A DNA stretch of 64,000 bases from the NCBI GenBank assembly GCA_964016885.1, contig OZ024764.1, forward strand, positions 6,944,001 to 7,008,000, written 5' to 3'. The notes under the pieces are model-generated. The model was not told the origin of the DNA. It did not search any database and saw only the letters and a list, made by a program, of their open reading frames with translations. The position numbers were made by a program, and so were the translations under genes. The stretch comes from Eledone cirrhosa. Lineage: Eukaryota. Shown here piece after piece: positions 5,721-60,978 of the stretch (positions within the stretch are counted from its first letter, which is position 1; the number at the start of each line of letters is the position of its first letter).

Positions 5721-5837
5721 AGGTAACAATTGTTTCTATAGTGTATGAGTTACCTATACCTCGCTATTTGAATAATACACAAATATTATCAAAAACCGAA
5801 AGTACACTGTAAGCTAACACACCATGTCATCAGACCT
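5721..5837 (-). ncRNA. Hammerhead ribozyme motif with long stem II
   Basis: Minus strand: aggt-CTGATGA-catggtgtg...tacactata-GAAA-CAATTG-TT-acct; stem I aggt/acct; palindromic stem III. Confidence 0.7.
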
Positions 5838-6154
5838 TTGTATTAGAATGATATGAAAATATTTTATACACTAGATAAAAGATAAAGAAGGAGGTAGTTG
5901 ACTCCATCCAATGCAACTACTTAGTAACATTGGAATACAAATTATATATATATATATATATATATACACACATAGTCCTATATGAGCGAGACACGGTCAC
6001 CCGACCAACCTTGCCTCTAGTGGGACAATTCCCATCTAAACCCATGCTAGCGTGGAAGATAGACGTTAAACGATGATGATGATTATATATATATATAAAT
6101 GTGTGTGTGTGTGTAGTTGTGCTTGCGTGTGCATTTATATACAGTGTGTTTGTA

Positions 6155-8830
6155 TGTGGAAGGTTTTTAGATAAATATAAACACTTTAACCCTTTCATTA
6201 CCATATTTCTAATGGAAGACACTGTTGGTGTTTGGAACATATCTTAACAAAGGTTCCTACATAAAATTATGATGGAAGGTTTTTAGATAAATATAAACAC
6301 TTTAACCATTTCATTACCATATTTCTAATGAAAGACACTGTTGGTGTTTGGAACATAACTTAAGAAAGGTTCTTACATAAAATTATGATGGAAGGTTTTT
6401 AGATAAATATAAACACTTTAACCCTTTCATTACCATATTTCTAATGAAAGACACTGTTGGTGTTTGGAACATAACTTAACAAAGGTTCTTACATAAAATT
6501 ATGATGGAAGACTTTTAGATAAATATAAACACTTTCACCCTTTCATTACCATATTTCTAATGAAAGACACTGTTGGTGTTTGGAACATAACTTAACAAAG
6601 GTTCTTACATAAAATTATGATGGAAGGTTTTTAGATAAATATAAACACTTTAACCCTTCCATTACCATATTTCTAATGAAAGACACTGTTGGTGTTTGGA
6701 ACATAACTTAAGAAAGGTTCTTACATAAAATTATGATGGAAGATTTTTAGATAAATATAAACACTTTAACCCTTTCATTACCATATTTCTACTGATAGAC
6801 ACTGTTGGTGTTTGGAACATAACTTAAGAAAGGTTCTCACATAAAATTATGATGGAAGGTTTTTAGATAAATATAAACACTTTAACCCTTTCATTACCAT
6901 ATTTCTAATGAAAGACACTGTTGGTGTTTGGAACATAACTTAAGAAAGGTTCTTACATAAAATTATGATGGAAGACTTTTAGATAAATATAAACACTTTC
7001 ACCCTTTCATTACCATATTTCTAATGAAAGACACTGTTGGTGTTTGGAACATAACTTAAGAAAGGTTCTTACATAAAATTATGATGGAAGGTTTTTAGAT
7101 AAATATAAACACTTTAACCCTTCCATTACCATATTTCTAATGAAAGACACTGTTGGTGTTTGGAACATAACTTAAGAAAGGTTCTTACATAAAATTATGA
7201 TGGAAGGTTTTTAGATAAATATAAACACTTTAACCCTTTCATTACTATATTTCTAATGAAAGACACTGTTGGTGTTTGGAACATAACTTAAGAAAGGTTC
7301 TTACATAAAATTATGATGGAAGACTTTTAGATAAATATAAACACTTTCACCCTTTCATTACCATATTTCTAATGAAAGACACTGTTGGTGTTTGGAACAT
7401 AACTTAAGAAAGGTTCTTACATAAAATTATGATGGAAGGTTTTTAGATAAATATAAACACTTTAACCCTTTCATTACCATATTTCTAATGAAAGACACTG
7501 TTGGTGTTTGGAACATAACTTAAGAAAGGTTCTTACATAAAATTATGATGGAAGGTTTTTAGATAAATATAAACACTTTAACCCTTCCATTACCATATTT
7601 CTAATGAAAGACACTGTTGGTGTTTGGAACATAACTTAAGAAAGGTTCTTACATAAAATTATGATGGAAGGTTTTTAGATAAATATAAACACTTTAACCC
7701 TTTCATTACCATATTTCTAATGAAAGACACTGTTGGTGTTTGGAACATAACTTAAGAAAGGTTCTTACATAAAATTATGATGGAAGGTTTTTAGATAAAT
7801 ATAAACACTTTAACCCTTTCATTACCATATTTCTACTGATAGACACTGTTGGTGTTTGGAACATAACTTAACAAAGGTTCTTACATAAAATTATGATGGA
7901 AGGTTTTTAGATAAATATAAACACTTTAACCCTTTCATTACCATATTTCTAATGAAAGACACTGTTGGTGTTTGGAACATAACTTAAGAAAGGTTCTTAC
8001 ATAAAATTATGATGGAAGGTTTTTAGATAAATATAAACACTTTAACCCTTTCATTACCATATTTCTACTGATAGACACTGTTGGTGTTTGGAACATAACT
8101 TAAGAAAGGTTCTCACATAAAATTATGATGGAAGGTTTTTAGATAAATATAAACACTTTAACCCTTTCATTACCATATTTCTAATGAAAGACACTGTTGG
8201 TGTTTGGAACATAACTTAAGAAAGGTTCTTACATAAAATTATGATGGAAGGTTTTTAGATAAATATAAACACTTTAACCCTTCCATTACCATATTTCTAA
8301 TGAAAGACACTGTTGGTGTTTGGAACATAACTTAAGAAAGGTTCTTACATAAAATTATGATGGAAGGTTTTTAGATAAATATAAACACTTTAACCCTTTC
8401 ATTACCATATTTCTAATGAAAGACACTGTTGGTGTTTGGAACATAACTTAAGAAAGGTTCTTACATAAAATTATGATGGAAGGTTTTTAGATAAATATAA
8501 ACACTTTAACCCTTTCATTACCATATTTCTAATGAAAGACACTGTTGGTGTTTGGAACATAACTTAAGAAAGGTTCTTACATAAAATTATGATGGAAGGT
8601 TTTTAGATAAATATAAACACTTTAACCCTTTCATTACCATATTTCTACTGATAGACACTGTTGGTGTTTGGAACATAACTTAAGAAAGGTTCTCACATAA
8701 AATTATGATGGAAGGTTTTTAGATAAATATAAACACTTTAACCCTTTCATTACCATATTTCTAATGAAAGACACTGTTGGTGTTTGGAACATAACTTAAG
8801 AAAGGTTCTTACATTACCATATTTCTAATG
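6155..8830. repeat. 116-bp satellite array (~23 copies); unit contains TTAACCCTTT, a piggyBac/MITE-like terminus
   Basis: gatggaagg recurs at 6271, 6387, 6503 and onward; same unit at 28150-28885, 29235-29727 and ~730-760. Confidence 0.92.
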
Positions 8831-8936
8831 GAAGACTTTCTCTCATGGTTTTGAAATAATTTTGAAAACGATCAAGAATTTCAAGAGATTTGGTAATATC
8901 AACAACACCGCCACCATCATCACCTCACCACCATTA

Positions 8937-9158
8937 CTGCATACTAAGCAAGGTCATTTCCCTGAGGGGATCTTGGTTCTGTTTTCCTCTCTGCTTACAA
9001 GGACCTTAGTCTTTATCAGGTTGACTTTGAGACCCCTTCTTTCTAGTCCCTGCTTCCACGATTAGAATTTCTTCTCTAGTTCCACCATAGATTCAGCTAT
9101 TAGTGTAAGATCATCCGCATACAGGAGTTCCCATGGACATCCAGTCTTAAACTCCTCT
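8937..9158 (-). mobile_element. RTE LINE RT fragment
   Basis: Matches 62730-62950 (EEFKTGCPWELLYADDL region). Confidence 0.85.
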
Positions 9159-9457
9159 GAAGTAGCCCCATTTGTCTACCTGTTGAGTCATTTCTATGTT
9201 TTTATATATATACACATATAATCTTTTAACATCCATTTTCCATGCTAGCATGGGTTAGACGGATTGTCCCATAAGAGGCAGGTTGGGTCATAAAGGACTG
9301 TTTCTGACATGGTTTCTACAGCTGGATGCTCTTCCTAATGTCAACCACATTTACAGAGAGTACTGGGTGCTTTTTACCGTGATACCTACACAACCACCTT
9401 ACAGTGTGGGCTGGATATTTTGTGATACCAGCATAATATATATATATATATATATAT

Positions 9458-59159: not shown

Positions 59160-59420
59160 ATATCTTTATTTAATTAAAAAAAATTTTTATTCTTTCTCTG
59201 AGACACTTTTAAAAAGATATTTTTTGAAAGCAAAGCATTTGCCCCTAAAATGCTACCGTGGGTCCATGTAGTGCTACTGTGGGCCCCCTGGACCCTAGTT
59301 GCCATTGGGCAACCTGGAAACCTGGCCAGTCTGCCACATACATATATATATATATAGAGAGAGAGAGTGGTAAATACTTATGTTTTCCTTACAGTTGTTA
59401 CATATTCTATTTTTTGACAG

Positions 59421-59477
59421 GTCAGGTGTGAGTGACCCTTATTGTGTGATAAAGATAGACAATGAACCCATTGCCAG
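59421..59477 (+). CDS. RASAL1: 57-bp internal exon of a GAP1-family RasGAP (RASAL1/RASA4-like), C2A domain
   Basis: Acceptor tttttgacAG, donor agGTAAGT; translates (x)SGVSDPYCVIKIDNEPIAR, matching my recollection of RASA4 TGSSDPYCIVKVDNEPIIR and RASAL1 SGSSDPYCLVKVDDEVVAR; RASAL1 versus RASA4 cannot be resolved. Confidence 0.85.
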
Positions 59478-59622
59478 GTAAGTTTCTCTTGTTTCACTCA
59501 TTTGACTGCTCTTTGGCCATACTGGGGCACCAACCATATAACCATATTGATACCAATACTTATTATATCGATCCCCTCTTGAACTTATCTATCCTTCTAT
59601 TTATTCCCCTCACTCTCTCTCC

Positions 59623-59663
59623 TCTTGCCTTCTGATGATGGACTAATGTCCGAAATGTCAAGA
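59623..59663 (+). ncRNA. Minimal hammerhead ribozyme motif
   Basis: cctt-CTGATGA-t-GGAC taat GTCC-GAAA-tg-TC-aaga; the tail caagcattaaactaatatat is shared with a truncated copy at 57505-57560. Confidence 0.75.
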
Positions 59664-60546
59664 TTGTTTTCCTATTATATCAAGCATTAAACTAATATAT
59701 ATCTTCACTGTACTGTATGGATTTGCTGTGTTGTAAATCCATTTACTTTTCACATACATGAATACATACACACAATCACACCTGTATGTGTGTGTGTGTG
59801 TGTGAAGACCCCCTTTGCTCACAAATGACCATGGCATTTACACCTAGAATGTTGCACTCCCAGGCACGAGTCCGGACCAGGTTGTTTGTGGAAGACCAGC
59901 AGTCACCCCTGGTATACCAGTCTCCCCTCTCCATACCACTGATGTTACCCAATGGAGAGGCAATGGCTGATACAGCTTGGCACCAGTGACGTCACAACTC
60001 ATATATACACTATATATATATACTATATATATAGACTATATATATACTATATATACACTATATATATAGATTATATATATACTATATATACACTATATAT
60101 ATAGACTATATATATAGTGTATATACACTATATATATAGACTATATATATACTATATATAGACTATATATATATAGACTATATATATACTATATATACAC
60201 TATATACGCTTTGACTTCTAACTAATTCACCAATCTCTCCTCTCCTATCTCCATCTCTCTCTTTAAGATTGGTTACTCTTGAACTGTGTATGTATATATA
60301 TATATATGTATACATATATATATATATATATATATATATATATATATATATATATATATATATAAATCAGGAAAGAAGGTTTACATGGTTTGCTATACAA
60401 AAAAGTTTTTAATCACATAGCTTACATTTGTTTCACTGAACTGGTATGTCTAGAGATCGCTATCCGCCTAATTTTGCGTCTAACTATTATTTGTTAATCC
60501 GTATATATATATATATATATATATATATATATATATATATATATAT

Positions 60547-60978
60547 GGAAAGTTATATTTAAATTGTTGGGTTAACAACGAGTAAATATTTATAACTGAT
60601 ATAAAGCACTCAACAAGTATTTGGAGTATATTTATGATATTAAATAAATGGAAACTATATTTATAAAACCATATTTATTTCGTTATATATATTTCAGGGA
60701 TATCATATTAACAATATGTTATGCCTTCTTCAGACAAAATACAATATAAACAGTCTTATAAATAAATAGATACGACATACCTTTCAATCACCTTGCATTT
60801 GGGAGGTTGATTTGGCAAGGTGATTGAAAGGTATGTCGTATCTATTTATTTATAAGACTGTTTATATTGTATTTTGTCTGAAGAAGGCATAACATATTGT
60901 TAATATGATATCCCTGAAATATATATAACGAAATAAATATGGTTTTATAAATATAGTTTCCATTTATTTAATATCATA
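60547..60978 (-). mobile_element. Fold-back hammerhead element in (TA)n
   Basis: Arms 60633-60796 and 60815-60978; hammerheads at 60678-60739 (-) and 60872-60933 (+): ttttgt-CTGAAGA-agg..cct-GAAA-TATATA-TA-acgaaa. Confidence 0.85.

What the first reader, a model, noticed from the sequence alone, without database searches (positions are those of the whole stretch)
5721..60933. Stem III is usually a short palindrome whose sequence differs between families, suggesting dimeric ribozymes
Seen between GAAA and UH: UGCGCA, UAUAUA, UAUGUA (G-U), CAUAUG, CAAUUG, GUAC, CUACGUAG and CUAUCGAUAG. Self-complementarity is preserved despite sequence change, and the segments are too short to fold a stable hairpin in cis. 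Established: PLE-associated minimal hammerheads cleave as dimers through palindromic stem III. Unusual here: many combine this with long (40-90 nt), sometimes branched stem II. Inference: cleavage would be restricted to tandem or same-family transcripts, giving family-specific recognition and sparing host pre-mRNA.
Basis: partly seen in the sequence, partly recalled or inferred. Interest (0 to 1): 0.75.

Follow-up and report, generated by a model that had tools for sequence, protein, structure and literature searches.

The report
Paired hammerheads of Penelope-like retroelements
The window holds about two dozen copies of a small hammerhead RNA motif from many families of jumping genes, nearly all with a self-complementary third arm that likely makes two copies pair up to cut, which is an already published design; the palindromes are shared between some families, so they are not a strict family code.

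Summary
Observation real. All eight palindromes sit between GAAA and UH in type I hammerheads. A scan blind to stem III kept 152 motifs in 1.26 Mb (no control hit with those cores); 122 are self-complementary. In one clade both inner pairs change together (CGCGCG, CACGUG, CAUAUG, CAAUUG); these pairs cannot form in a hairpin, which supports copy-to-copy pairing. The motifs end Hydra- and Neptune-type Penelope-like elements and a 591-bp retrozyme-like tandem. The design is published (Perreault 2011, Cervera 2014, Craig 2021 supplement). The family-code inference holds only partly: UAUAUA, UAUGUA and CAAUUG recur across families, 86 of 152 copies have a cross-compatible family, stem I is also inter-copy, a young family has non-palindromic GAAC, and the 8-10 nt palindromes may fold in cis. 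Long stem II (40 nt or more) is real but a minority (15 of 152 copies), predicted unbranched. Cleavage untested. The scan noted the same features on other pieces of this genome.

The parts
5721..5837 (-). Type I hammerhead, stem III CAAUUG (5727-5732), 90-nt stem II, 4-bp stem I
   Evidence: stem II fold z -5.4; 675 genome matches vs 0 control, CAAUUG in 90 of first 100, several same-strand pairs about 3 kb apart
15383..15475 (-). Type I hammerhead, CAUAUG, 60-nt stem II with decayed base; member of the CGCGCG/CACGUG/CAUAUG/CAAUUG clade
   Evidence: (10,083 matches vs 19 control)
29972..30034 (-). Hammerhead, UAUGUA, 20-nt stem II
32416..32574 (.). Back-to-back inverted pair of UAUGUA hammerheads (32416-32478 minus, 32512-32574 plus)
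33089..33159 (+). Hammerhead, UGCGCA, 36-nt stem II (Hydra-type PLE family)
33470..33548 (+). Hammerhead, UAUAUA, 36-nt stem II
33790..33999 (.). Inverted pair of UAUGUA hammerheads, 30-nt stem II (33790-33854 minus, 33935-33999 plus)
34196..34266 (-). Hammerhead, UGCGCA, 36-nt stem II
36051..36332 (.). Inverted pair of UGCGCA hammerheads (36051-36121 minus, 36262-36332 plus)
36538..36580 (-). Decayed hammerhead (GAAA read as AAAA), stem III GAGC, behind a Neptune-type ORF remnant at 36794-37856
45930..45972 (-). Hammerhead with non-palindromic stem III GAAC, about 200 nt after the stop of the ORF below
   Evidence: GAAC in 32 of 34 motif copies found in 30 loci
46174..47133 (-). 5'-truncated Neptune-type Penelope-like ORF (RT end, Cys linker, GIY-YIG-like end)
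   Evidence: 94% to the 868-aa frame of L177; clade by motif reading, no Pfam hit above cut-off
47284..47322 (-). Small hammerhead, GUAC, 12-nt stem II, core changed to CUGGAGA in this copy
51397..51472 (+). 5'-truncated hammerhead, CUAUCGAUAG (51456-51465); family has U3-A8 core and 53-nt stem II
   Evidence: 86% to L275
55303..56477 (.). Insertion of a 591-bp non-coding tandem element: two head-to-tail hammerheads on minus (55375-55462, 55966-56053), one inverted on plus (56150-56237); U3-A8 core, 57-nt stem II, CUACGUAG
   Evidence: (7,436 matches vs 32 control)
59629..59662 (+). Minimal hammerhead with 2-nt segment UG (family CG), 3-bp stem I
60676..60935 (.). Inverted pair of UAUAUA hammerheads, 31-nt stem II (60676-60741 minus, 60870-60935 plus)
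61186..61256 (-).
5008..5049 (+).

Best explanation
These are type I hammerhead motifs at the 3' ends of Penelope-like retroelements and their non-coding passengers, and their self-complementary stem III likely lets two copies form a double hammerhead that would cut the element's RNA out of a tandem precursor. Shown: motif anatomy, palindromy, compensatory change, position in the pseudo-LTRs of Hydra-type and Neptune-type elements and in a 591-bp tandem unit. Inferred: in a transcript with two same-strand copies (pLTR-ORF-pLTR, or head-to-tail monomers) A15.1-palindrome-U16.1 of one copy pairs with that of the other, and stem I then also forms between copies, so partner choice depends on stem III and stem I together. 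That gives clade-level compatibility groups, not a code per family. Most genomic copies are truncated ends, alone or beside an inverted twin, and would likely stay uncut. The long stem II is likely a tolerated or functional extension of the loop, not part of the dimer mechanism. Families with 8-10 nt palindromes may also cut as monomers.
For: Descriptor blind to stem III: 122 of 152 fully self-complementary, 12 more with one central mismatch. Family-level samples with stem III free, first 100 listed, counted by eye: 95 of 100 in the 68,471-match superfamily, 90 of 100 CAAUUG, 90 of 100 GUAC, 74 of 100 in the 15468 clade (62 Watson-Crick in four sequences, 12 with G-U). On 34 aligned clade copies the second pair reads G-C 18 / A-U 11 and the central pair C-G 16 / A-U 3 / U-A 2; 16 cells changed on both sides against 7.0 in shuffles (0 of 500). 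The central pair is made of adjacent bases, so it cannot pair in cis. Self-duplex energies -2.2 to -15.5 kcal/mol against +0.4 to +4.7 for the isolated cis hairpins of the 6-10 nt segments. In the window's 591-nt tandem, inter-copy A15.1-U16.1 pairing has probability 0.41 and 0.58 against under 0.001 in cis. UGCGCA motifs flank 738-821 aa frames in pLTR arrangement (L161, L167, L168) with DKT, CxCX5C, C-terminal CxxC and CxH as listed for Hydra. Dimer activity of this class is reported in PMC4209133 and PMC7229834.
Against: No cleavage or RNA data here. The young Neptune-type family has GAAC in 32 of 34 copies (self-duplex +1.4 to +2.4 kcal/mol), so a palindrome is not required for spreading. 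26 of 100 clade copies are mismatched, and part of the CGCGCG-CACGUG-CAUAUG series could come from CpG decay (CAAUUG cannot). The shuffle control ignores relatedness; only 2 pairs covary, and that measure alone is not above shuffles (458 of 500). AU-rich palindromes give weak duplexes (-2 to -3 kcal/mol). Published PLE hammerheads cut poorly even as dimers (PMC4209133), and the anole one needs the element's protein and is dispensable for insertion in vitro (PMC11167929).
Confidence: 0.78

Rival explanations
1. One reading: each family's palindrome is a selected recognition code that limits cleavage to same-family transcripts and spares host pre-mRNA.
For: 676 of 703 cluster pairs are stem III-incompatible; UGCGCA versus UAUAUA shares stem I but has 2 mismatches (+5.7 kcal/mol), so stem III alone would separate those two. 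Sister subfamilies of one clade carry different palindromes.
Against: The most numerous clusters share UAUAUA/UAUGUA and stem I (86 of 152 copies cross-compatible); single clusters hold both sequences; CAAUUG recurs in 4 clusters with different stems I and II; stem I discriminates as well; incompatibility is the default for diverged sequences. No host gene was established.
Confidence: 0.1
2. The motifs act as monomers with a 2-4 bp stem III held by the element's protein or by tertiary contacts from the long stem II; palindromy is a by-product of a short hairpin.
For: Protein-assisted cleavage of the anole element's hammerhead (PMC11167929). Axolotl motif with 2 bp plus tetraloop cuts 22% as a monomer (PMC7229834). 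CUACGUAG and CUAUCGAUAG can form 3-4 bp in cis. GAAC family spreads without a palindrome. Odd-length segments such as CCACUGG read well as small hairpins.
Against: A hairpin does not need its loop bases to be complementary, yet the central pairs are complementary in 17 of 21 distinct even-length segments and covary within a clade.
Confidence: 0.15
3. The palindrome is mainly an RNA-RNA pairing signal that brings two template RNAs together for two-armed insertion, with cleavage secondary.
For: 77 of 152 copies have an inverted same-family partner within 6 kb, 71 of them back-to-back. A large subfamily keeps CGCGCG while its core reads CCGUCGA (about 58 of the first 100 of 2,572 matches). Catalytic mutants do not affect insertion in vitro (PMC11167929).
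Against: Naiad and Chlamys elements, reported to lack canonical hammerheads, form the same tandem and inverted insertions (PMC8557442). The GAAC family also forms inverted insertions (L163, L164, L178). Activity of the variant core is unknown, so it may still cut.
Confidence: 0.07

Closest known systems
Minimal and palindromic-helix-III hammerheads in pLTRs of metazoan Penelope-like elements (Cervera and de la Pena 2014, PMC4209133; main text parts 1-2 of 4 and supplement parts 1-2 of 3 read)
   Same: Type I, same core, palindromic 15.2-16.2 and loop 3 with different sequences among families (Fig. S3 consensus 'GAAAN Palind NUH'), U3-A8 variant, frequent extra base before stem II, mostly solo truncated copies, opposite-strand pairs 100-700 bp apart, dimer model.
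   Different: Here 6-nt palindromes dominate (104 of 152) rather than 2-nt ones; stem II is 25-39 nt in 96 of 152 and 43-91 nt in 15, against about 24 nt at most in Fig. S3 (whose descriptor limited stem size); copy numbers are far higher (68,471 matches for one superfamily).
Hammerheads of Hydra-clade PLEs (Craig et al. 2021, PMC8557442; section 11, passages, File S1 part and File S2 read)
   Same: ORF motifs (DKT, CxCX5C, CxxC, CxH), (TA)n insertion, inverted 5' copies; File S2 lists self-complementary stem III segments that differ by family, many with a one-base centre.
   Different: Listed Hydra stems II are about 26 nt or shorter; the only long ones in File S2 are plant PLE-X1 (about 52 nt, marked as deviating). 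The RWK motif reads RWT/RWI here.
Double-hammerhead ribozymes of newt/axolotl satellites and repeat hammerheads (Perreault et al. 2011, PMC3088659, passages incl. Fig. S8 legend; Cervera and de la Pena 2020, PMC7229834, passages)
   Same: Weak stem III with palindromic loop, dimer-enhanced cleavage; Fig. S8C already tabulates palindromic stem and loop III across ribozymes. The 591-bp unit is a non-coding head-to-tail repeat like non-LTR retrozymes.
   Different: 591-bp unit is longer than the 220-400 nt units described, with U3-A8 core and 57-nt stem II; loop 1-loop 2 tertiary contacts were not tested here.
Lunse, Weinberg and Breaker 2017, small hammerhead variants of PLEs cleave as dimers (PMC5785218; not held, only its title in reference lists and review summaries seen)
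   Same: By title and by the reviews PMC6765202 and PMC6466107: palindromic short stem III, dimer cleavage, PLE association.
   Different: Cannot tell; it may already cover long stem II or variant cores.

Membership tests
Type I hammerhead ribozyme | Core CUGANGA (or U3-A8 variant), GAAA, UH in type I order | tested here: met
   20 complete motifs in the window; 4 further sites decayed or truncated
Type I hammerhead ribozyme | Stems I and II base-paired around the core | tested here: met
   descriptor with reversed-sequence control
Type I hammerhead ribozyme | Rfam hammerhead model match | tested here: inconclusive
   none among the 150 listed of 610 matches, all listed ones microsatellite-driven miRNA models; 460 lower rows not seen
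Type I hammerhead ribozyme | Self-cleavage 3' of H17 | not testable with these tools
   no biochemical or RNA data
Dimer-type (double) hammerhead | Short, self-complementary stem III with covariation of loop positions | tested here: met
   not met by the GAAC family
Dimer-type (double) hammerhead | Second same-strand copy available in the source element | tested here: met
   pLTR-ORF-pLTR at L167, L168; 591-bp tandems; about 3-kb pairs of the CAAUUG family; most genomic copies lack one (123 of 152 without same-strand neighbour within 6 kb)
Dimer-type (double) hammerhead | Cleavage depends on the second copy | not testable with these tools
   needs in vitro assay
Penelope-like element pLTR hammerhead | Motif in terminal repeats next to an RT plus GIY-YIG frame | tested here: met
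   UGCGCA, UAUAUA/UAUGUA (one subfamily) and GAAC families; not shown for the CAAUUG, CAUAUG, GUAC and CUAUCGAUAG families
Penelope-like element pLTR hammerhead | Inverted 5'-truncated copies and (TA)n ends | tested here: met
   77 of 152 with inverted partner; (TA)4 within 21-240 nt downstream for 18 of 19 window motifs
Hydra clade PLE (UGCGCA family) | DKT, CxCX5C linker, CxxC and CxH, no CCHH, (TA)n target | tested here: met
   read by eye in the L161 frame against PMC8557442 section 11; RWK reads RWT
Hydra clade PLE (UGCGCA family) | Placement in the RT tree; profile match | tested here: inconclusive
   no tree built; Pfam and PDB searches gave nothing significant
Non-LTR retrozyme (591-bp unit) | Non-coding head-to-tail repeat with one type I hammerhead per unit | tested here: met
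   (arrays up to 5 plus 3 units; no long frame in the three sense frames printed)
Non-LTR retrozyme (591-bp unit) | Expressed as monomeric linear and circular RNA | not testable with these tools
   no usable RNA run

The most novel reading that the evidence does not exclude
The stem III palindrome is a template-dimerisation signal, like a retroviral kissing loop, that pairs two element RNAs of a compatible clade and so drives the two-armed insertions typical of Penelope-like elements; it is kept even in a large subfamily whose core has drifted to CCGUCGA, and the long stem II carries a further family-specific signal for the element's protein.
Probability: 0.08. Interest if true: 0.75.

Novelty: new member of a known kind. 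Interest (0 to 1): 0.27.

Why it matters
The dimer design itself is known. What this genome adds is a test set: dozens of families and well over 90,000 motif matches (68,471 + 10,083 + 7,436 + 6,664 + 675), natural compensatory palindrome series inside one clade, natural exceptions (GAAC), stems II up to 91 nt that short-stem descriptors miss, and a variant core. The role of hammerheads in Penelope-like elements is still open, and these natural swaps make the dimer model and partner specificity directly testable.

Tried and rejected
Rfam scan: listed hits were microsatellite-driven miRNA models. The repeat finder on the whole window returned only microsatellites. Pfam and PDB did not recognise the PLE frames (best RVT_1 E 0.1); the Atlas could not read them. 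One pattern had the wrong length and returned only chance hits, 7 vs 12 control. RNAalifold on 20 clade copies gave no usable consensus for the long stem II, so its covariation is not shown. No RNA holder listed for the 591-bp unit; no reads were laid. Rejected: chance or AT-bias origin (controls); pure CpG decay as the source of palindromes (CAAUUG needs transversions); 'branched' stem II as a general trait; a strict family code. Chance-like hits in the loose scan and the 32570 row were discarded. Host-gene context was not determined. The key paper PMC5785218 is not held. Paper searches for U4C/A6U core variants, heterodimer specificity, long stem II and RNA dimerisation in PLEs listed nothing that describes these points, judged from listings and the passages read; subscription papers are not covered.
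Full report
Setting. The window is G000:C25:6944001-7008000 of a 3.0-Gb animal genome, AT-rich and full of microsatellites and interspersed repeats. I did not identify the organism.

Observation. Twenty complete type I hammerhead motifs lie in the window, plus four damaged sites: 47284-47322 (GUAC, core CUGGAGA), 51397-51472 (5' core lost), 36538-36580 and 5008-5049. The GUAC and CUAUCGAUAG sites belong to real families: 6,664 matches against 0 control, with core CUGAAGA in 96 and GUAC in 90 of the first 100 (by eye); and full copies with a U3-A8 core and 53-nt stem II among the matches (L275 aligns at 86%).

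Chance. My descriptor required the core and stems I and II but left the 0-14 nt between GAAA and UH free. It found 88 motifs in 464 kb around the window and none in the reversed sequence. Adding four 200-kb blocks chosen at round coordinates gave 161 in 1.264 Mb against 7 controls. All controls had UUGA[ACG]AA cores, so I dropped the 9 real hits with such cores (one of them a real CCGG family). Of the 152 kept, 87 are Watson-Crick palindromes, 35 palindromes with G-U, 12 odd-length with one unpaired centre and 18 imperfect; by cluster (85% identity) 27 of 38 are fully self-complementary and 6 more are of the odd type. Among 21 distinct even-length segments, 17 are self-complementary; letter shuffles give 3.9 on average and never more than 11. 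The descriptor misses variant cores and decayed stems, so counts are lower bounds.

Covariation. In the clade of the 15468 motif (10,083 matches against 19 control, stem III free) the first 100 listed read CGCGCG 41, CAUAUG 9, CAAUUG 9, CACGUG 3, G-U palindromes 12, mismatched 26 (by eye; many mismatches are CpG-type changes). On 34 aligned copies, 16 cells change on both sides against 7.0 in shuffles (0 of 500), but only two pairs covary and relatedness is not controlled. The central pair joins adjacent bases, so its complementarity can only matter between two copies. This is the best evidence for the dimer reading.

Energies (model only). Forming stem III in cis costs +0.3 to +5.9 kcal/mol for 4-6 nt segments; self-duplexes of the palindromic ones give -2.2 to -10.5. 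CUACGUAG gains -2.0 in cis (ensemble probability 0.06) and CUAUCGAUAG can form 4 bp, so these two may not need a partner. In the window's 591-nt tandem the inter-copy A15.1-U16.1 pairs have probability 0.41 and 0.58, the cis pairs under 0.001.

What carries them. UGCGCA motifs flank frames of 738-821 aa as inverted pLTR, pLTR, ORF, pLTR (L168), direct pair (L167) or inverted pair (L161) (20 regions picked for this purpose). The L161 frame shows DKT, CxCX5C, C-terminal CxxC and CxH, as described for the Hydra clade (PMC8557442 section 11). A UAUGUA/UAUAUA subfamily sits at a related frame, 55% identical (L165, L166). The GAAC motif at 45930 follows a truncated Neptune-type frame in the window; top relatives are 91-97% identical in protein and 32 of 34 motif copies read GAAC. 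The Neptune label rests on my reading of the Cys linker and GIY-YIG-like end; libraries gave no significant hit. The CUACGUAG motif belongs to a 591-bp non-coding unit in head-to-tail arrays with an inverted arm (7,436 matches against 32 control, a few from other families), i.e. a non-LTR retrozyme-like element. The CAAUUG family with 90-nt stem II has 675 matches against 0, several in same-strand pairs about 3 kb apart; its frame was not examined.

Arrangement. Within 6 kb and within the same cluster, 69 of 152 copies are alone, 54 have only an inverted partner, 23 both kinds, 6 only a same-strand neighbour; 71 of the 77 inverted cases are back-to-back. All five inverted pairs of the window that I folded form one long hairpin (-126 to -254 kcal/mol) that would bury the motif in a read-through transcript.

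Family code. By double-hammerhead geometry (established for newt and viroid RNAs; PMC4209133 Fig. 1 legend), pairing stem III between copies also makes stem I inter-copy; this last step is my inference from the geometry. Only 27 of 703 cluster pairs are stem III-compatible and 14 also by stem I, but these include the largest clusters: 86 of 152 copies have a compatible foreign cluster. UAUAUA leads 4 clusters, CAAUUG 4; the largest cluster holds UAUAUA 34 and UAUGUA 17. In the 68,471-match superfamily, 95 of the first 100 are self-complementary with only a few sequences shared by all subfamilies (by eye). UGCGCA versus UAUAUA is a real case where stem III alone would discriminate. So there are compatibility groups, with no sign that they were selected as a code.

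Long stem II. 40 nt or longer in 15 of 152 copies and 12 of 38 clusters. All 12 fold as one irregular hairpin; 5 have z of -3 or lower against dinucleotide shuffles, including the window's 90-nt (-5.4) and 57-nt (-3.7) arms. Published animal lists that I read stop near 24-26 nt; a plant element reaches about 52 nt. Covariation within long arms was not shown.

Literature seen. PMC4209133: main text parts 1-2 of 4, supplement parts 1-2 of 3. PMC8557442: passages, section 11, supplement part 2 of 59. PMC11167929, PMC7229834, PMC3088659, PMC6765202, PMC6466107: passages. bioRxiv 10.64898/2026.07.22.740005: part 1 of 5 (its supplements are closed). PMC5785218: not held; figures of all papers unseen. 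Palindromic stem III with family-varying sequence and the dimer model are stated in PMC3088659 (Fig. S8 legend), PMC4209133 and PMC6765202.

Verdict. Real, well supported, and in its main point already published. The additions are scale, within-clade compensatory series, long stems II, exceptions and a variant core. Earlier notes of this scan on other pieces of the genome reached the same reading; I saw them after my own tests and they are not counted as evidence. Interest 0.27.

Noticed in passing
genome-wide relatives of window 15383-15475 (e.g. L298, L305, L309): A subfamily keeps stem III CGCGCG but its first core strand reads CCGUCGA (about 58 of the first 100 of 2,572 matches; CCGACGA 15, CUGACGA 25, CUGUCGA 2, by eye). 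U4C is a known weak variant (PMC3088659); the search listed no paper with A6U.
   Followed up: partly
window 55303-56477: 591-bp retrozyme-like unit; in the loci copies end repeatedly at unit positions near 223 and 388, like the two-site tail of Penelope-like elements.
   Followed up: partly
window 46174-47133 (minus); G000:C3:199331720 region (L163): Young Neptune-type family with long open frames (up to 1,257 codons, partly from an inverted arm) and 45,764 first-look candidates; its hammerhead has non-palindromic GAAC.
   Followed up: partly
window 35600-35700 (minus) and 30380-30450 (plus): Isolated hammerhead-like words in an order other than type I (GUC, then GAAA, then CUGA); may belong to the reordered hammerheads that earlier notes describe in this genome.
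   Followed up: no
L162, L170, L175, L272: Small family with UUGAAAA (U3-A8) core, 13-nt stem II and CCGG stem III, often as inverted pairs; dropped from the counts with the noisy core class.
   Followed up: partly
window 6159-8839, 28134-29727, 22948-24246, 37862-38940, 39820-40599, 47717-48517, 50275-50972, 51789-54143: Tandem satellites with periods of about 116, 49/98, 153, 87, 72 and 107 bp; some units match the abundant interspersed repeat.
   Followed up: no
window 5260-5525, 9458-9779, 30480-30814, 31339-31685, 35233-35587, 58825-59169 and others: A young, about 330-bp SINE-like repeat, 92-98% identical between copies, ending in (GAT)n.
   Followed up: no
window 19276-20148 (minus), 61952-64000 (minus): LINE reverse-transcriptase remnants; their YADD codons produce false CUGAYGA core matches.
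   Followed up: partly
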